64,000 nt of DNA from an uncultured Coprobacillus sp. (GTDB taxonomy: Bacteria; Bacillota_I; Bacilli_A; RFN20; CAG-826). The DNA is taken from NCBI GenBank assembly GCA_964583155.1, contig CAZOUY010000004.1, positions 35,538-99,537 on the forward strand. Reading direction: 5' to 3'. Made by a program: the position numbers and the translations under genes. Numbering within the stretch: the stretch's first letter is position 1; every line of letters begins with the position of its first letter. The notes under the pieces were generated by a model. The model did not search any database. It saw nothing but the letters and a program-made list of their open reading frames with translations, and was not told where the DNA came from. Shown here in pieces: positions 239-53,999 of this stretch.

Positions 239-511
239 ATGAATAAAGTTGAGTTAGTTGATATGATTGCTAATGATGCTCATCTCACAAAAAAAGATGC
301 CACTAATGCTTTAGAAGCCATGCTCGAAGCAATGGCGGGCGCTTTATCAAAAGGTGAAGATGTTAAATTGGCGGGCTTTGGTAATTTCACGGTCAAAGAA
401 CGCGCGGCTCGTAAAGGCGTTAATCCTGCGACCGGCGAAACCATCGAAATTGCGGCGACAAAGGCCGTTGGATTTAAGGCTGCTAAAGCTCTTAAAGACA
501 AAGTTAACTAA
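239..511 (+). CDS. hup: HU family DNA-binding protein
   Basis: MNKVELV..IA, GFGNF, R.GVNPATGE.IEI motifs; 90 aa; GGAG RBS. Confidence 0.97.
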   Translation: MNKVELVDMIANDAHLTKKDATNALEAMLEAMAGALSKGEDVKLAGFGNFTVKERAARKGVNPATGETIEIAATKAVGFKAAKALKDKVN

Positions 512-519
512 TGAAAAAT

Positions 520-10627: not shown

Positions 10628-10665
10628 TAAAATACATTATAGTCTACTAGGAGGTGCATGCTTTA

Positions 10666-10881
10666 ATGAGAAGTGGAACCTGTCCAAAATGTGGCGGAAC
10701 TAACATAAAGAAGATTAAGCTGCAATCAATTGCTAGTGATTCTGCAGTTTGGGATTATGAGTATTATGGACTATTTCAGTGTGCATTCATGACGAGATAT
10801 GTATGCTAGGACTGTGGCTATAGTGAAAGATATTTTGAAGATAAAGATTTGGAAAAGGTGAAAGGAAAAAGCAAAAAATAA
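10666..10881 (+). pseudogene. Small zinc-ribbon protein interrupted by an in-frame TAG (10807-10809)
   Basis: AGGAGG RBS. Frame reads MRSGTCPKCGG...RYVC*DCGYSERYFEDKDLEKVKGKSKK*; the stop falls inside the second CxxC. Not in the ORF track. Confidence 0.75.
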
Positions 10882-11054
10882 AGGGCAAAGGCTCAATGTT
10901 TTTTGCTAAATAATTCCGAGAATTTTCGCATTCTCATATCAAAAAACAATTGAAAAGAGCAATGCCTTGACAAATGGTGAGATATGAAAGTTGGAATTTG
11001 CTTTTAAAAACGGAATGAAAGTTGAAACTAAATTCATCTTTTCTATTTTAAAAT

Positions 11055-11077
11055 GCCTTTACTTTGTCACTTAACGC
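11055..11077 (-). repeat. Copy C (inverted) of a three-copy intergenic element
   Basis: Minus strand GCGTTAAGTGACAAAGTAAAGGC matches 53511-53533 at 21/23; weaker similarity continues toward ~11021. Confidence 0.75.
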
Positions 11078-11130
11078 TTTTTTAGAGATGAGAAAATTAT
11101 GTTTTTTTCCTTTTATAAAGTAATTCAATT

Positions 11131-11139
11131 TGGTATACT
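11131..11139 (+). promoter_or_regulatory. Candidate extended -10 sigma-A promoter for rny
   Basis: TGgTATACT about 210 nt upstream of the rny start; weak -35. Confidence 0.45.
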
Positions 11140-11347
11140 ATAAATGTGCTCTATGCACTTATACCTTGTAAATATAGATTTCAACATTTAATTAGAGGCG
11201 TAGTCCTTATCATATAATTATTTGGATCAAGAAAACACACCTACAGGGAATATTATGGTCTTTTTATGACTATTTTTATCACTTTTTAGTTGATAATGTA
11301 ATTTTTGATTACTCTAAAAAAATATTGGAGAAGGGGGATTTTTTATC

Positions 11348-12925
11348 ATGATTATTTTAGAAACGGCAAAAAGTATGCCGTTATGGTTAGCTATTTTGCT
11401 AATGTTTGTTATGTTAATTCTCGGAGCTGTCATAACTCTTTTAGTGCCTTTCTTTAAGATCAAAGCATCTATGAAAAAAAGCGAAAAGATTTTAAAGGAC
11501 GCAGAAACAAAATCCGATCATTTACTGAAAACTGCGCAATTGGATGCCAAACAGCACGCTTATGAAATGAAAGTCGAAGCGGAAAAAGAAATAAAGGAGA
11601 AAAAGGCGGAATTAGCGGTTCAAGAGAATAAATTGTTACAACGTGAGCAAGGAATCGATCGCCGCGATATCGCCTTACTCGCTAAAGAAAACACGTTGGA
11701 AGAAAAAAATGAGGCCCTGAATAAGCGAATGAAAGAAATTGATCGCAAAGAGGCCGTACTCCAAGAAAAAATTGACTCTATTTTATCGGAATTAGAGAAG
11801 GTCGCGAATATGTCGGTAGGAGAAGCAAAAGAGGAGATTTTCCGCCGTGTCGAAAGCAAAATATCGCGCGAATTAGCGGCCTATGTCAAAAATAAGGAAG
11901 AAGAGGCTCGCGATACTGCTGATACAACTGCGAAAGAAATTTTATCATTGGCAATTTCCAAATATTCTCAAGATGTCACTTCGGAAAGAACCGTTTCCGT
12001 GGTAGCGTTGCCAAGCGATGAAATGAAGGGCCGAATCATCGGACGTGAAGGTCGGAATATTCGTTCTTTAGAGCAATTATTAGGGGTTGACTTAATCATC
12101 GATGACACTCCTGAGGTCATCACGGTTTCTTGCTTCGATCCGATTCGTCGAGAAATCGCTCGTTTATCATTGGAAAATTTGATTAAAGATGGTCGTATTC
12201 AACCGGGTAGAATAGAAGAAGTAGTGGAAAAAGCGAAAAATGAAGTGGCTGAATCGGTACGTAAGACCGGTCAAGAGGTTGCCTTTAAGCTTGGTCTACC
12301 GCGCATTAACAAAGAATTATTAGATTATGTTGGACGATTGAAATATCGAACCAGCTATGGCCAGAATGCTTTGGATCATTCCATTGAAGTCGCTTACTTA
12401 GCCGGAATTATGGCCGCTGAGTTGGGCTTGGATCAAAATCTCGCTAAAAGAGCAGGATTATTGCATGATATCGGTAAAGCGGCTGACTTTGAATTAGATG
12501 GCAGTCACGTGGAAATTGGTGTTCGTTTGGCGAAAAAATATGGTGAGCCTGATGTGGTGATTAACGCTATCGAATCGCATCATGGCGATGTGCCTTCGAA
12601 ATATTTTATCTCTAATTTAGTAGCGGCGGCCGATACCTTATCGGCGGCACGCCCGGGCGCACGCAGCGAAACCTTAGAGAATTATGTGAAGCGAATTGAA
12701 AAATTGGAAACTATTTGTAAATCTTATGAGGGTGTCAGCCAATGCTATGCTATGCAATCCGGACGTGAGGTCCGAATCATGGTTGTCCCTGAAAAAGTTG
12801 ATGATTTAGGAGCCTTTAAGTTAGCCCGTGAAATTCGTGAAAGAATCGAAGAGGAAATGACTTATCCGGGTCAAATTAAAGTATCTGTAATTCGAGAAAT
12901 GCGAGCTATTGAACTCGCTAAATAA
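11348..12925 (+). CDS. rny: Ribonuclease Y
   Basis: N-terminal TM, coiled coil, KH ([13 protein letters not shown]), HD domain (GLLHDIGK). Confidence 0.97.
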
Positions 12926-44831: not shown

Positions 44832-44918
44832 TGGTGCCCGGGACCGGACTTGAACCGGTATGGTATCGCTACCGAGGGATTTTAAGTCCCTTGCGTCTAC
44901 CTATTTCGCCACCTGGGC
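44832..44918 (-). tRNA. tRNA-Leu(TAA)
   Basis: AGGGA-CT-TAA-AA-TCCCT anticodon arm, long variable arm, GGTTCAAGTCC, encoded CCA. Confidence 0.96.
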
Positions 44919-44927
44919 AATGACAAA

Positions 44928-45003
44928 TGGTGACCCGTATGCGATTCGAACGCATGACCCCTTGATTAAAAGTCAAGTGCTCTACCGACTGAGCTAACGG
45001 GTC
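44928..45003 (-). tRNA. tRNA-Lys(TTT)
   Basis: CTTGA-CT-TTT-AA-TCAAG, GTTCGAATC, encoded CCA. Confidence 0.96.
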
Positions 45004-45008
45004 GAAAT

Positions 45009-45084
45009 TGGCTGGGGTACCTGGGATCGAACCAGGGAAATGACAGAGTCAAAGTCTGTTGCCTTACCTCTTGGCTATACCCCA
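45009..45084 (-). tRNA. tRNA-Gln(TTG)
   Basis: ACAGA-CT-TTG-AC-TCTGT, GGTTCGATCC, encoded CCA. Confidence 0.96.
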
Positions 45085-45089
45085 AAAGA

Positions 45090-45173
45090 TGGTGGAGGAG
45101 GGTGGATTCGGACCACCGAACCCGAAGGAATTGATTTACAGTCAACCGCGTTTGGCCACTTCGCTACTCCTCC
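45090..45173 (-). tRNA. tRNA-Tyr(GTA), T-loop TCCGAAT
   Basis: GTTGA-CT-GTA-AA-TCAAT, variable arm, encoded CCA; C at position 55. Confidence 0.93.
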
Positions 45174-45192
45174 ATATTGACATTAACACGAA

Positions 45193-45268
45193 TGGTGGAT
45201 GTTGACGGGATCGAACCGCCGACCCCCGCCGTGTAAAGGCGATGCTCTCCCAGCTGAGCTAAACATCC
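45193..45268 (-). tRNA. tRNA-Val(TAC)
   Basis: TCGCC-TT-TAC-AC-GGCGG, GGTTCGATCC, encoded CCA. Confidence 0.96.
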
Positions 45269-45287: not shown

Positions 45288-45316
45288 AATATATCATTGT
45301 TGATTTTTTTAGTCAA
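45288..45316 (-). promoter_or_regulatory. Sigma-A promoter of the Val-Tyr-Gln-Lys-Leu tRNA operon
   Basis: TTGACT-N17-TATATT on the minus strand. Confidence 0.75.
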
Positions 45317-45359
45317 TTGTTTATTACTCATTTTTTAAAAAAACCTCTCGTTTACAAAT

Positions 45360-45410
45360 TGACAAAGTAAAAGCAACAATAAAACCAAGATAGTGAATTT
45401 TACCTTTTCA
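45360..45410 (+). repeat. Copy A of the three-copy intergenic element
   Basis: 44/51 identical to 53519-53569, first 18 nt (TGACAAAGTAAAAGCAAC) identical. Confidence 0.85.
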
Positions 45411-45530: not shown

Positions 45531-45569
45531 TGAATGCAGAGAATAAACACTAATTACTCTCTGCATTCA
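45531..45569 (-). terminator. Inverted repeat after pgi
   Basis: TGAATGCAGAGA...TCTCTGCATTCA 12-bp stem. Confidence 0.6.
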
Positions 45570-50943: not shown

Positions 50944-51558
50944 CTAAGAATCTTTGCGGATATTGACATAATCCTGATCGGTTATTTCGCGAATAACATG
51001 ACAAGGATTGCCAACAGCTACCACATTTGAAGGAAGGCTTTTAGTGACAACACTACCAGCCCCAATGACGACATTATCACCAATAGTGACTCCTGGCAAA
51101 ATAACAGTGCTTCCACCAATCCAGACATTGCTTCCGACGCTTATGGGCTTAGCATATTCTAAATCATCAAGAACACCTTTATCATTGATAAATTGATTAC
51201 GATCTAAATAATGAATTGGATGACAGGCAGTATAAAAACAAACGCGGGGACCGATAAATACGTCATTACCAAAGGTGATCGGTGCACAATCGAGAAAGAT
51301 GCAATCAAAATTAGCGTAGAAGCGATCACCCAAAAAGACATTTTGACCATAATCAACGCGGATATTAGGCTCAATCCAACAATTTTTACCGACTTTTCCT
51401 AGCAATTCTTTTATAAGCTGACTTCTTTTTTCTGTTTCATATTCTTGAGTATTATTAAAGTCAATGGCCAATTGGTGAGCCTTTTTTCTTAATTCTCCTA
51501 ATTCAGGATCATTAGCGTGGTAATATTGACCGGCAATCATTTTATCAAATTCTTTCAT
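50944..51558 (-). CDS. maa: Sugar O-acetyltransferase (maltose/galactoside family)
   Basis: KMIAG..Y, DYG.N, HP, hexapeptide WIGG...ILPGVTIG, GAGSVVTK, GNPC. Confidence 0.9.
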   Translation of the reverse strand: MKEFDKMIAGQYYHANDPELGELRKKAHQLAIDFNNTQEYETEKRSQLIKELLGKVGKNCWIEPNIRVDYGQNVFLGDRFYANFDCIFLDCAPITFGNDVFIGPRVCFYTACHPIHYLDRNQFINDKGVLDDLEYAKPISVGSNVWIGGSTVILPGVTIGDNVVIGAGSVVTKSLPSNVVAVGNPCHVIREITDQDYVNIRKDS

Positions 51559-51707
51559 ATCTTATCCCTCATCGCATTTTCACTATCGTTTATGCTTTAA
51601 TAATATAACGATAGCTATTCTTTTTCTAGATAATGTAGATTGTAAATTTCATTAGGCGATCTAAGAATTATGTTTTTTAATATTTACAGATCATAAGCTA
51701 TTGATAT

Positions 51708-52262
51708 TTATTTAATCGCATCAATTATCAAGGAAACCATTCCTAATTTTCCATCCATGTTTCTGGTATCAAATCGCAACGAGCGCCCTATTTTACCATA
51801 GTCCAAATTGTAATAATTGAAATGAAAGTCACCATTATCATCACACCATTCAAGCAATTTACATGTAAATCCGGCTAAAGTAAAAACTTCTATCAAAAGA
51901 TGATAATCATAAAACACTTTATGCGTAAAAGCAGGATGATCCATTGGTCCGGGGCCGCCTGGTTTACACATGTTTTGATACCATTCATTCCGGAAATTAG
52001 CATCAGGGACCGCCACTCTTATTCGCCCATTCTTTTTTAAGTATTTATAGATAATTTTGGCTGCTTTTATGCCTTCATCGAAAGTCAGGTGTTCGAAAAC
52101 ATGCTCCGCTAAAAAAGCATCTACGGAATTTTCTTCCAACATATTTTTAAAAGTTTCTTCGTCTAAAAGATTGAGTTCATTCGCTTGCGTCGAAATCCAA
52201 CCATCATACGTGATATTACCGGCACCGATAATTATTTTTTTCACATTAAGCACTCCATTCAT
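51708..52262 (-). CDS. Class I SAM-dependent methyltransferase (type 11-like)
   Basis: IIIGAG, AEHVFEHL, LKKNG.IRVAVPD; true start possibly GTG 52244. Confidence 0.75.
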   Translation of the reverse strand: MNGVLNVKKIIIGAGNITYDGWISTQANELNLLDEETFKNMLEENSVDAFLAEHVFEHLTFDEGIKAAKIIYKYLKKNGRIRVAVPDANFRNEWYQNMCKPGGPGPMDHPAFTHKVFYDYHLLIEVFTLAGFTCKLLEWCDDNGDFHFNYYNLDYGKIGRSLRFDTRNMDGKLGMVSLIIDAIK

Positions 52263-52428
52263 TAATCGTTTTATTAATTGAAATATTGATTATAAGATAT
52301 AATAAAAATATTTTTTTGTCTAACTATTGATTTCTAACATGTAAACAGATTTCAGATGGATTAAGGATAATGAAAAGACACATTACCATGTGTCATTTTC
52401 TAAATTGATTGTTTTATTAATAAACATA

Positions 52429-53115
52429 TTATTTACTTCTAATAACAGGACGAACGTATTTAAAAAAGCGTTTGCAGTCGTGAAAGAAGTAGAATATACG
52501 TCCAGGTGTGGTGTCTATTATATAGCCACTTTTCTCATAATCAAATCTTTTCATTACTAATTCAATGCTTTCTTCTACTTTTTGACTTTGCTTTTTCCAA
52601 AAATCTTAGTAGCCGATGCTTTCATAGTTTCTGATATGTAAAAACTTATGCTCGGGGATTTTCACAAAATAAATTTTGATTTCTTCTGTACTTACTTGAT
52701 CATTCATTTTATTTTTTTCTCCTTCCATCAAGAAACAATCGAAAGGTTTTATCAAGGTTTGCAAAACGACCGGCCGCGGCTTTTTGCGATATTCACTTGG
52801 AGTAATGCCATATGCTTTTTGAAAAGCACGAGTAAAAGACTCATGTGAAGAATATCCATATTTTACGGAAATATTCAAAATACTATTATCGAAATCGCGA
52901 ATTTCTTTGAAGGCAAAAGCCAGTTTTCTTAATCTAATATAATCCTTTAATCGCATTCCTGAGATAAATGAGAATTTTCGTGATACATAGAATTCGGAAT
53001 AGCCAAGTTTACTTGCTAATGATTTTAATGTCATTGATTCATCTTTTTCATCACGAATACATGAGTCGATTTCATCTATAATGATTTGGACTTGTCGATG
53101 CCAATTTGATAGCAT
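52429..53115 (-). pseudogene. AraC-family regulator with effector domain, disrupted by an in-frame TAA (52606-52608) and probable internal deletion
   Basis: HTH GYS.ESFTRAF...YG.TPS. After ESIGY* the same frame continues DFWKKQS...SGYIIDTTPGRIFYFFHDCKRFFKYVRPV, which looks like the normal C-terminus. Confidence 0.75.
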
Positions 53116-53364
53116 ACTGAATTCGCCTTTCGATTGCTAATAAAATCTTTTAAGAGCAATAAAGAGCATATTTGACATTACTTGCAATTATTTCAAAATT
53201 TAAGGACAAAAGCGTGTTTAAGATAATAGACAATATTAGAAAACCTAGTGATTATGTGTTGTCCATATTAAGTGAAATTTAAATTGCTTAATAGATGACA
53301 TAGATTTATATTAAAAAAAGAAACTTAATATAAAAAGTCCCATCATGGGACTTTATTCTCTAAA

Positions 53365-53448
53365 TGGTGCAGTCAATGAGACTTGAACTCACACGGGTCT
53401 CCCCATACGCCCCTCAAACGTACGCGTCTACCATTCCGCCATGACTGC
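53365..53448 (-). tRNA. tRNA-Leu(GAG)
   Basis: TACGT-TT-GAG-GG-GCGTA, variable arm, GTTCAAGTC, encoded CCA; terminator hairpin at 53334-53354. Confidence 0.95.
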
Positions 53449-53458
53449 AATCGTGTTT

Positions 53459-53486
53459 ATTATATCAAATTTCAAGAAACTTGCAA
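53459..53486 (-). promoter_or_regulatory. Sigma-A promoter of tRNA-Leu(GAG)
   Basis: TTGCAA-N16-TATAAT with TG extension on the minus strand. Confidence 0.7.
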
Positions 53487-53510
53487 TAATAAAAGGTAAA
53501 AATAATAAAA

Positions 53511-53569
53511 GTGTTAAGTGACAAAGTAAAAGCAACGATAAAGCCAAAAGAGTAAATTTAACTTTTTCA
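53511..53569 (+). repeat. Copy B of the three-copy intergenic element
   Basis: Matches 45360-45410 (44/51) and inverted 11055-11077 (21/23). Confidence 0.85.
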
Positions 53570-53615: not shown

Positions 53616-53999
53616 ATGAAAAAGAAATATATATTATTAATAATAAATATTTTACTTACATTAAGTGTTTTTTTGCCTTTGAAAGTGAAGACTGTTAATC
53701 CGGAGATAGGAGTTGTAACTTCGTATTATAGTTGTTTTGATTTATTGATAGATGGACATTATGTTTTTACTTTGCCATATATATTTTTACTTTTGATTTT
53801 TGTTGTAACATCTATATGTTTTAATAAAAACAAAATAATAAAAGTGATTAATCTGATCTCAATTCTTATGATGACACTTATAGGTATGATTGCATTTATT
53901 AATTTTTTCAGCATTGCCGCGATTTATGCTTTTGTATACTTATTCAGTATTATAGCGATTTTAAAAATTTGGAAGGAAGAGAATATTAAAGGCATTTAA
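53616..53999 (+). CDS. Small AT-rich multi-TM hypothetical protein
   Basis: AAGGAG RBS; three to four hydrophobic segments; much more AT-rich than its neighbours. Confidence 0.65.
   Translation: MKKKYILLIINILLTLSVFLPLKVKTVNPEIGVVTSYYSCFDLLIDGHYVFTLPYIFLLLIFVVTSICFNKNKIIKVINLISILMMTLIGMIAFINFFSIAAIYAFVYLFSIIAILKIWKEENIKGI

What the first reader, a model, noticed from the sequence alone, without database searches (positions are those of the whole stretch)
45288..45410. Unannotated three-copy element at a near-fixed position upstream of housekeeping promoters
Seen: 45360-45410 and 53519-53569 are 44/51 identical, and a third inverted copy lies at 11055-11077. The core is TGACAAAGTAAA(A/G)GCA, and all copies are intergenic. 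Each points away from an adjacent sigma-A-like promoter. Its TGAC lies 67 bp (tRNA operon), 55 bp (tRNA-Leu GAG) or 65 bp (rny) from the -10 box, differences of about zero or one helical turn. It has no hairpin, and I do not recognise it as a REP, dif, IS end or riboswitch. Inference: either a binding site for an unknown activator or nucleoid factor of stable-RNA/RNA-turnover genes (Fis-like function in a lineage without Fis), or the footprint of a small mobile cassette or recombination site targeting promoter-upstream DNA. Each copy borders a small accessory or decayed ORF, which fits the second reading.
Basis: partly seen in the sequence, partly recalled or inferred. Interest (0 to 1): 0.75.

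Follow-up and report, generated by a model that had tools for sequence, protein, structure and literature searches.

The report
Young three-copy block upstream of promoters
A short non-coding DNA block sits in three copies at nearly the same distance upstream of two tRNA promoters and the RNase Y promoter; close relatives lack it, so it is a recent copy-and-paste addition to older promoters, not an ancient shared control site, and what it does is unproven.

Summary
C1 (45357-45410) and C2 (53516-53569) are 85% identical over 54 nt. C3 (11030-11081) is inverted and 75% identical to C2 over 52 nt. The 16-nt core occurs exactly 3 times, against 0.12 expected. Each copy lies 32-43 nt upstream of the -35 of a sigma-A-like promoter with a TG-extended -10, in one orientation. 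A random oriented intergenic point does this with p about 0.0075.

The block is not conserved. Syntenic relatives (PGI 86% and 81% identical; Rny 94-86%) keep the tRNA-Val, tRNA-Leu and rny promoters but lack it. A profile of the three copies found nothing in 40 relatives' loci or in any collection scan.

The copies do not share common ends or target duplications, show no significant fold, and match no Rfam, phage or plasmid sequence. A sigma-54-like match is at chance level. The nearby AraC/Rob-like gene is a pseudogene.

Best reading: a young, lineage-restricted upstream block of the "putative mobile promoter" kind, written in next to existing promoters. Its invariant asymmetric core is probably a protein-binding site, which is inferred. 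A functionless scar of a mobile element is nearly as likely. The Fis-like reading is not supported. Interest is modest.

The parts
45357..45410 (-). Copy C1. It reads TGAAAAGG...GCTTTTACTTTGTCA toward the tRNA-Val operon promoter. The core is at 45360-45375.
   Evidence: (D1), (E = 4e-15). Absent at the orthologous site in L499 and L376.
53507..53569 (-). Copy C2, the fullest copy. 53516-53569 is shared with C1. 53507-53558 is shared with C3 and includes CTTAACACTTTT on the promoter side. The core is at 53519-53534.
   Evidence: (D1, I1), (E = 5e-15). Absent in L376.
11030..11081 (+). Copy C3. It reads ...ATGCCTTTACTTTGTCACTTAACGCTTTT toward the rny promoter. The core is at 11054-11069. The well-matched tract TTTACTTTGTCACTTAACGCTTTT (about 11058-11081) is 23 of 24 identical to C2.
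   Evidence: (I1), (E = 1e-10). The core is not conserved in L368, L369, L370 or L121.
45288..45316 (-). Sigma-A-like promoter of the tRNA Val-Tyr-Gln-Lys-Leu operon (TTGACT-17-TATATT, with TG before the -10).
   Evidence: Nearly identical in relatives L499 and L376, which lack C1.
53459..53486 (-). Sigma-A-like promoter of tRNA-Leu(GAG) (TTGCAA-16-TATAAT, with TG before the -10).
   Evidence: Conserved in L376.
11112..11139 (+). Sigma-A-like promoter of rny (TTTATA-16-TATACT, with TG before the -10).
   Evidence: Conserved in L368, L369, L370 and L121.
44832..45268 (-). tRNA operon Val(TAC)-Tyr(GTA)-Gln(TTG)-Lys(TTT)-Leu(TAA).
53365..53448 (-). tRNA-Leu(GAG).
11348..12925 (+). rny (RNase Y, 525 aa).
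   Evidence: Pfam RNase_Y_N, KH_1 and HD; sources name relatives 'ribonuclease Y'.
53616..53999 (+). A 127-aa hydrophobic ORFan, divergent from tRNA-Leu. It starts 47 nt beyond the distal end of C2. GC is 24%, against 38% for the window.
45531..45569 (-). Intrinsic terminator of pgi. It bounds the pgi-tRNA spacer that holds C1.

Best explanation
The three sites are paralogous copies of one short non-coding block. C2 is the fullest copy, at about 63 bp. It shares 54 bp with C1 and about 30-52 bp with C3. The block arose recently in this uncultured Bacilli lineage by copying DNA between promoter-upstream regions. Each copy was written in next to an older promoter, 32-43 nt upstream of the -35 hexamer of a sigma-A-type promoter with a TG-extended -10: the tRNA-Val operon, tRNA-Leu(GAG) and rny. 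The orientation is the same in all three.

Shown: the copies are homologous, restricted to this lineage, added to pre-existing promoters, and placed non-randomly.

Inferred: the invariant asymmetric core (AAKTGACAAAGTAAARGCA; read toward the promoter, TGCYTTTACTTTGTCA) is a protein-binding site. It sits at about -75 to -95 from the transcription start, on one face of the helix. It would work like a far-upstream, class-I-type activator site or a nucleoid-protein site, and it has been spread by copy-and-paste instead of evolving separately at each promoter. The binding protein and the copying mechanism are unknown.
For: Homology: D1 54 nt at 85%; I1 52 nt at 75%; 3 exact cores against 0.12 expected; profile E = 1e-10 to 4e-15.

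Placement: searches give the promoters. In one search the window has only 23 TG-extended promoter-like sites, all three copies lie 31-46 nt upstream of one in the same orientation, and the background is p = 0.0075 per copy. The spacers of 43, 32 and 42 nt differ by about 0 or 1 helical turn.

Late addition to older promoters: in A3 and A6 the tRNA-Val -35, -10 and upstream A/T-rich stretch are almost identical in L499 and L376. Those two relatives share another block (roughly GCTWTAGAA..CGC.AAAA) where the window has C1. In A4 the tRNA-Leu promoter is kept in L376 without C2. In A2 the rny promoter and leader are kept in four relatives without the C3 core.

Core protected: the 8 mismatches between C1 and C2 all fall outside the 16-nt core that C3 also keeps. 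My own count on the sequences gives C(38,8)/C(54,8) = 0.047.

Known precedent: families of upstream sequences at least 80% identical over at least 50 nt, in front of unrelated genes, are common in bacteria ('putative mobile promoters', PMC3575422).
Against: No binding protein is identified. The only regulator-like gene nearby is a pseudogene, and its intact relatives carry no such motif nearby.

A 54-nt stretch at 85% identity is far more than a transcription factor needs, so identity by recent descent explains most of the similarity. The evidence that the core is protected is marginal (p about 0.05).

Relatives run the same promoters without the block, so it is not required.

Only three copies could be examined, and the rest of the genome could not be reached. 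There is no expression or binding data.
Confidence: 0.4

Rival explanations
1. The block is a functionless scar: leftover ends of a small mobile element (a solo IS or MITE end) or of inserted cassettes that prefer the A/T-rich DNA just upstream of strong promoters. It persists because it is young and harmless.
For: The block is lineage-specific, and relatives have 'empty' sites. Lineage-specific DNA lies on the promoter-distal side: an ORFan of 24% GC beside C2, and a recA-rny spacer about 400 nt longer than in L369 and L370 beside C3. C1 has a 13-nt, 85% inverted repeat at its ends. The tRNA-Leu locus is a hot spot for foreign DNA. Target preference would explain the fixed position.
Against: The copies do not share common termini. 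C1-C2 homology stops at ...TTTGTCA, while C2-C3 homology runs 12-14 nt further toward the promoter. There are no target-site duplications. The inverted repeat is not kept in C2 or C3. No transposase or recombinase gene was noticed next to any copy. There is no match in plasmid or phage records or in other genomes.
Confidence: 0.3
2. The block is the regulatory region (divergent promoter or 5' UTR) of small accessory genes such as the 127-aa ORF next to C2. On this reading C1 and C3 are remnants of such cassettes whose genes have decayed.
For: At C2, a + strand TTGCAA-16-TAATAA site (my reading of the sequence; the scan did not list it) would start transcription at the edge of the block, 100 nt before the ORF. 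Beyond C1, by eye, there is a ribosome-binding-site-like AGAAGAGAGG followed by ATGAAAGAAAAA..., which resembles the ORF start at C2.
Against: The extended C1/C2 similarity beyond the 54 nt is not above shuffled controls (61 of 300 shuffles score as high). No conserved -10 follows the TTGACA/GTGACA in the block. The ORF has no homologue anywhere and no paralogue in the window. The small ORF near C3 has a different position and orientation.
Confidence: 0.08
3. The block is an old, conserved upstream activator site of stable-RNA and RNA-turnover genes, bound by a Fis-like factor.
For: Both tRNA loci of the window, and rny, carry the block at a constant phase.
Against: The block is absent upstream of the same genes in every relative examined. 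It is absent upstream of RNase P RNA. The extended pattern has no true match among the species-representative genomes.
Confidence: 0.03
4. C1 and C2 carry a sigma-54 (-24/-12) promoter: TGGYTTTATYGTTGCT fits GG-N10-GC and TTGCW.
For: C2 matches TGGC-N7-TTGCT and C1 matches TGGT-N7-TTGCT.
Against: The pattern occurs 3 times in the window against 2.2 expected, and 39 of 100 shuffles do as well. C3 lacks the GG. The part of the block conserved in all three copies lies outside the -24 element. No rpoN gene or enhancer-binding protein was seen.
Confidence: 0.02
5. The block is a structured RNA (an sRNA, a leader or a riboswitch-like element).
For: None beyond the sequence conservation between the copies.
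Against: Fold z-scores are -0.2 to -1.7 on both strands. No Rfam match at E of 1 or less overlaps the conserved block at any copy. No promoter or terminator frames it in a consistent way.
Confidence: 0.03

Closest known systems
Putative mobile promoters (PMPs; Matus-Garcia, Nijveen and van Passel 2012, summarised in PMC3575422)
   Same: Highly similar non-coding sequence lies upstream of unrelated genes in one genome. The C1-C2 pair meets their operational cut-off of at least 80% identity over at least 50 nt. Most of their families are also pairs, of unknown function and unknown means of spread.
   Different: Here the -35 and -10 are not part of the copied block. They are older and are conserved in relatives that lack the block. 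What spread is a far-upstream module, not a promoter. The downstream genes include tRNA genes, whereas their screen used the region -150 to -50 from translation starts.
Promoter-associated MITE-like repeats (Correia elements of Neisseria, ERIC, REPIN)
   Same: They are short, intergenic, lineage-specific dispersed repeats that can alter transcription of nearby genes (as described in PMC3575422).
   Different: Those have defined ends, terminal inverted repeats or hairpins, and usually tens to hundreds of copies. Here no shared termini, no conserved inverted repeat and no significant fold were found, and only three copies were seen.
Fis sites upstream of E. coli rrn P1 and tRNA promoters (my own knowledge)
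   Same: They are upstream activator sites for stable-RNA promoters, placed on one face of the helix at about -70 and beyond.
   Different: Fis sites are degenerate 15-bp motifs conserved across species, and Fis is absent from Bacillota. This block is a long, near-identical copy that is absent from close relatives.
Class I MarA/SoxS/Rob sites (marbox; my own knowledge)
   Same: It is an asymmetric site of about 20 bp upstream of the -35, and its action depends on orientation and helical phase.
   Different: The core does not fit the E. coli marbox consensus on inspection by eye. The only Rob-like gene nearby is a pseudogene with no motif near its homologues.

Membership tests
Putative mobile promoter (PMP) family | At least 80% identity over at least 50 nt between upstream regions within one genome | tested here: met
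   C1-C2 are 85% identical over 54 nt. C2-C3 are only 75% over 52 nt, so C3 would fail the strict cut-off. The criterion is taken from PMC3575422.
Putative mobile promoter (PMP) family | The downstream genes are not paralogues, so this is not a segmental duplication | tested here: met
   The downstream genes are tRNA-Val, tRNA-Leu(GAG) and rny. Similarity does not extend significantly beyond the block for C1-C2.
MITE or solo IS end | All copies share the same two termini | tested here: not met
   C1-C2 homology ends at TTTGTCA. C2-C3 homology continues through CTTAACRCTTTT and fades on the distal side.
MITE or solo IS end | Terminal inverted repeats | tested here: inconclusive
   A 13-nt, 85% inverted repeat is found in C1 only. 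It is not reported for C2 or C3.
MITE or solo IS end | Target-site duplication flanking each copy | tested here: not met
   The flanks are TTACA/ATTTG at C1, TTTTG/CTTAA at C2 and AAAGT/CTTAA at C3. None is a direct repeat (sequences).
MITE or solo IS end | Many copies per genome and a cognate transposase | not testable with these tools
   Only the 64-kb window of the source genome is readable. Other contigs of the same strain add nothing new.
REP/REPIN | A stable hairpin formed by inverted REP units | tested here: not met
   Fold z-scores are -0.2 to -1.7, within the range of shuffled sequences.
Any Rfam RNA family | A covariance-model match | tested here: not met
   No gathering-level hit. 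At E of 1 or less, the only matches are chance microRNA or sRNA models far below their thresholds.
Sigma-54 promoter | GG-N10-GC with TGGCAC/TTGCW in every copy, and enrichment over chance | tested here: not met
   Present in C1 and C2 and absent in C3. There are 3 matches against 2.2 expected.
Conserved upstream activator site of stable-RNA promoters (Fis-like) | Conservation at orthologous promoters in related genomes | tested here: not met
   Alignments A2, A3, A4 and A6. The profile search of 40 relatives' loci found nothing.
Conserved upstream activator site of stable-RNA promoters (Fis-like) | Fixed orientation and helical phase relative to the promoter | tested here: met
   The spacers to the -35 are 43, 32 and 42 nt, in the same orientation. 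The background is p = 0.0075 per copy.

The most novel reading that the evidence does not exclude
A lineage-specific regulon caught while forming. An unidentified DNA-binding protein of this uncultured gut Bacilli species recognises the asymmetric core TGCYTTTACTTTGTCA. Its site has been spread by copy-and-paste to one helical face upstream of tRNA promoters and the RNase Y promoter. This would newly couple tRNA synthesis and RNA turnover, a coupling that close relatives lack.
Probability: 0.15. Interest if true: 0.6.

Novelty: new member of a known kind. Interest (0 to 1): 0.3.

Why it matters
If the core is a working binding site, this would be a clean natural example of regulatory rewiring by copying an upstream module onto existing housekeeping promoters. 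Close relatives preserve the state before the change. That makes the effect of such a module directly testable, by comparing promoters with and without the block. If it is only a scar, it is one more of the several thousand unexplained duplicated upstream sequences already catalogued in bacteria, and it is of little consequence. Either way, it is not a conserved control element of stable-RNA genes in Bacillota.

Tried and rejected
2. The 19-nt pattern gave 51 hits in genome contigs, none homologous beyond the core.
4. The source genome is not on record for Rny. Contigs of the same strain (SRR6824193, SRR6824180) are 100% identical to the window where compared and add no useful new sequence.
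5. I tested whether the neighbouring AraC-family gene, whose nearest solved relatives are SoxS, RamA, Rob and MarA, is the regulator. I rejected this: the gene is a pseudogene, and its 60%-identical Lachnospiraceae relatives have no such motif within 5 kb.
6. The sigma-54 reading was rejected.
7. C1/C2 homology running on to an ORF start is visible by eye but is not significant.
8. A terminal-inverted-repeat, REPIN-like structure is seen only in C1, and the fold is not significant.
9. I compared the block by eye and from memory with integron attC, the CtsR, Spo0A, CodY, cre, ComK, LytTR and OmpR-family boxes, IHF, B. subtilis Ter sites and IS6-family ends. None fits. These were not tool tests.
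10. A literature search for the 12-mer found only a primer.
11. BLAST against plasmid and phage records found nothing relevant.

Full report
**1. Observation**

The repeat is real and sits at the stated coordinates. C1 (45357-45410) and C2 (53516-53569) are 85% identical over 54 nt and are the strongest direct repeat in the window. C3 (11030-11081) pairs with 53507-53558 at 75% over 52 nt and is the strongest inverted repeat. The core TGACAAAGTAAARGCA has exactly three perfect matches, against 0.12 expected. An nhmmer profile built from the three copies scores them at E = 4e-15, 5e-15 and 1e-10 and finds no fourth copy in the window.

The genes are as described. There is a tRNA Val-Tyr-Gln-Lys-Leu operon and a lone tRNA-Leu(GAG), both on the minus strand, and rny on the plus strand. 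The consensus scan places sigma-A-like promoters, each with TG before the -10, at:
- 45316-45288 (TTGACT-17-TATATT);
- 53486-53459 (TTGCAA-16-TATAAT);
- 11112-11139 (TTTATA-16-TATACT).

The spacers between the core and the -35 are 43, 32 and 42 nt, so they differ by about zero or one helical turn.

**2. Is the placement more than chance?**

Yes. The window holds only 23 promoter-like sites that score at least 9 of 12 and have TG before the -10. All three copies lie 31-46 nt upstream of such a site, in the same orientation. A random oriented point in non-ORF DNA does so with p = 0.0075. The distance window was chosen after seeing the data. Even so, three out of three is far beyond chance.

**3. 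Anatomy**

Read toward the promoter, the block is TGAAAAGGTAAAATTCACTATCTTGGTTTTATTGTTGCTTTTACTTTGTCA in C1. C2 is the fullest copy. It shares the whole 54 nt with C1. It shares the promoter-side part, TGCYTTTACTTTGTCACTTAACRCTTTT, with C3; within this, a 24-nt tract is 23 of 24 identical.

The copies therefore do not share common ends. There are no flanking direct repeats. Only C1 has a 13-nt, 85% inverted repeat at its ends. Folding of either strand is no better than shuffled sequence, with z from -0.2 to -1.7. No Rfam family matches.

All 8 mismatches between C1 and C2 lie outside the 16-nt core that C3 also keeps. My own count on the sequences gives a probability of about 0.047 for this. 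It is a weak hint that the core is protected.

**4. Organism and relatives**

The window comes from an uncultured Bacilli lineage. Its relatives are labelled Bacilli, Bacillales, Erysipelotrichia or Erysipelotrichaceae in their records. The nearest species-representative genome has Rny at 86% identity. The exact Rny is not on record. Contigs from runs SRR6824193 and SRR6824180 are 100% identical to the window where compared (contigs of the same runs).

- **rny.** The promoter and a long 5' leader are well conserved in relatives with Rny 94%, 90%, 88% and 86% identical (L368, L369, L370, L121). The C3 core is not. L368 has about 11-12 of 22 matching bases at the aligned position, and the profile does not detect it.
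- **tRNA-Val operon.** In L499 (PGI 86%) and L376 (PGI 81%) the -35, the -10 and the A/T-rich stretch upstream are almost identical to the window. C1 is missing. The two relatives share a different block (roughly GCTWTAGAA..CGC.AAAA) at that place.
- **tRNA-Leu(GAG).** In L376 the promoter is kept without C2.

So the promoters are old and the block is a recent addition in this lineage.

**5. Searches elsewhere**

- The 19-nt pattern that covers all three copies gave 51 hits among the species-representative genomes. None was similar beyond the pattern.
- The metagenome scan was swamped by an unrelated repeat.
- Plasmid and phage records and the literature gave nothing.

These scans need an exact core, and several were cut short. 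They show no close copy elsewhere. They do not prove that none exists.

**6. Specific mechanisms tested**

- **Sigma-54.** C1 and C2 fit GG-N10-GC with TTGCT. The pattern is at chance frequency in the window and C3 lacks it.
- **Regulatory region of the neighbouring small genes.** The 127-aa ORF beside C2 is an ORFan of 24% GC. The apparent similarity of the C1 flank to its ribosome-binding site and start codon is not above shuffled controls.
- **A nearby regulator.** The AraC-family gene downstream of tRNA-Leu has SoxS, RamA, Rob and MarA as its nearest solved relatives. It is truncated at residue 169 of about 320 and has lost part of its C-terminal domain. Its closest intact relatives, at 60% identity, are in Lachnospiraceae and carry no such motif within 5 kb.
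- **A discrete transposable element.** The copies lack shared termini, target duplications and a conserved inverted repeat, and no transposase gene was noticed next to any copy.
- **RecA-type gene conversion.** This is also unattractive. The present flanks of C1 and C2 share no significant homology.

**7. Interpretation**

Shown:
- three homologous copies;
- restricted to this lineage;
- added 32-43 nt upstream of the -35 of three older promoters;
- one orientation, and roughly one helical face.

Inferred: the invariant asymmetric core is a protein-binding site that acts from about -75 to -95, spread by copy-and-paste. I put this at 0.4.

The main rival is a harmless scar of a mobile element or cassette with a preference for promoter-upstream DNA. 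I put it at 0.3. It explains the lineage-specific DNA next to C2 and C3. It needs an unknown target preference, and the differing ends do not favour it.

Identity levels (C1-C2 85%, C2-C3 75%) and the nested boundaries suggest a chain of copying events, not independent insertions of one element. The direction of the chain cannot be settled.

**8. Comparison with known systems, and novelty**

By the operational definition of Nijveen, Matus-Garcia and van Passel, the C1-C2 pair qualifies as a 'putative mobile promoter' family. That definition asks for at least 80% identity over at least 50 nt upstream of unrelated genes. More than 4000 such families are known, most of them pairs of unknown function (PMC3575422).

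The difference here is that the promoters themselves are ancestral and only a far-upstream module was copied. The block is not a member of any MITE, REP or Rfam family tested, and it is not a conserved Fis-like site. I rate it a new member of a known kind, with modest interest.

**9. Limits**

Only 64 kb of the source genome could be read, so the copy number per genome is unknown. Three copies in 64 kb could mean dozens genome-wide, or none beyond these three. This single missing figure would separate the two leading explanations.

Noticed in passing
window 11140-11347 (also L368, L369, L370, L121 and L122-L130 upstream of rny): The rny 5' leader is conserved. It has a 5' hairpin GTGC...GCAC followed by TTAYC..TATAGATTY, and it is kept in relatives with Rny down to about 72% identity. 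It has no Rfam match, and a consensus-structure prediction on a rough alignment gave no pairs. It may be an unannotated cis-regulatory leader of RNase Y.
   Followed up: partly
window 52444-53115 (-): An AraC/Rob-like regulator gene is a pseudogene. It has a stop after residue 169 of about 320, similarity continues past the stop, and about 50 residues are missing. The nearest intact relatives, at 60% identity, are in Lachnospiraceae and Acetatifactor. This suggests horizontal acquisition followed by decay.
   Followed up: yes
window 50944-53333: A small accessory islet lies directly downstream of tRNA-Leu(GAG). It holds the AraC pseudogene, a 184-aa methyltransferase-like ORF and a 204-aa hexapeptide acetyltransferase. 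It is absent from the syntenic relative L376.
   Followed up: partly
window 53616-53999 (+): A 127-aa hydrophobic ORFan with 24% GC, against 38% for the window. Among 5.8 billion proteins it matches only itself.
   Followed up: yes
window 53552-53567: Two contigs of the same strain (L374 and L502, run SRR6824193) both end inside the distal arm of C2 and overlap by only 16 nt. This may reflect strain heterogeneity or a coverage drop at that point.
   Followed up: no
L376 4810-4840 and 11975-12005: In the relative L376, the sequences just downstream of tRNA-Leu(GAG) and of tRNA-Leu(TAA) are 81% alike over 31 nt. They look like terminators (a GC-rich inverted repeat followed by a T run). So tRNA loci of this group share flanking signals by paralogy.
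   Followed up: no
window 10654-10809 (+): A small ORF (51 aa from GTG; MRSGTCPKCGGTNIKK... from the internal ATG) with a good ribosome-binding site lies in the recA-rny spacer. That spacer is about 720 nt here, against about 280-320 nt in L369 and L370. The ORF has no Pfam match.
   Followed up: partly
L264, L292, L334, L338, L344, L346, L351, L355, L363, L364 (metagenome contigs, several from Ga0307514 and Ga0307515): An unrelated high-copy repeat, ...AAGTGACTGTTAAGTGACAAAGTAAAAGCAATATTAGTGACGAAATGAGC..., happens to contain the 19-nt search pattern. It filled much of the single metagenome scan.
   Followed up: no
window 240-512 (+): An HU-type DNA-binding protein gene (90 aa; Pfam Bac_DNA_binding in the same-strain contig L503) lies just upstream of dapB.
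   Followed up: no
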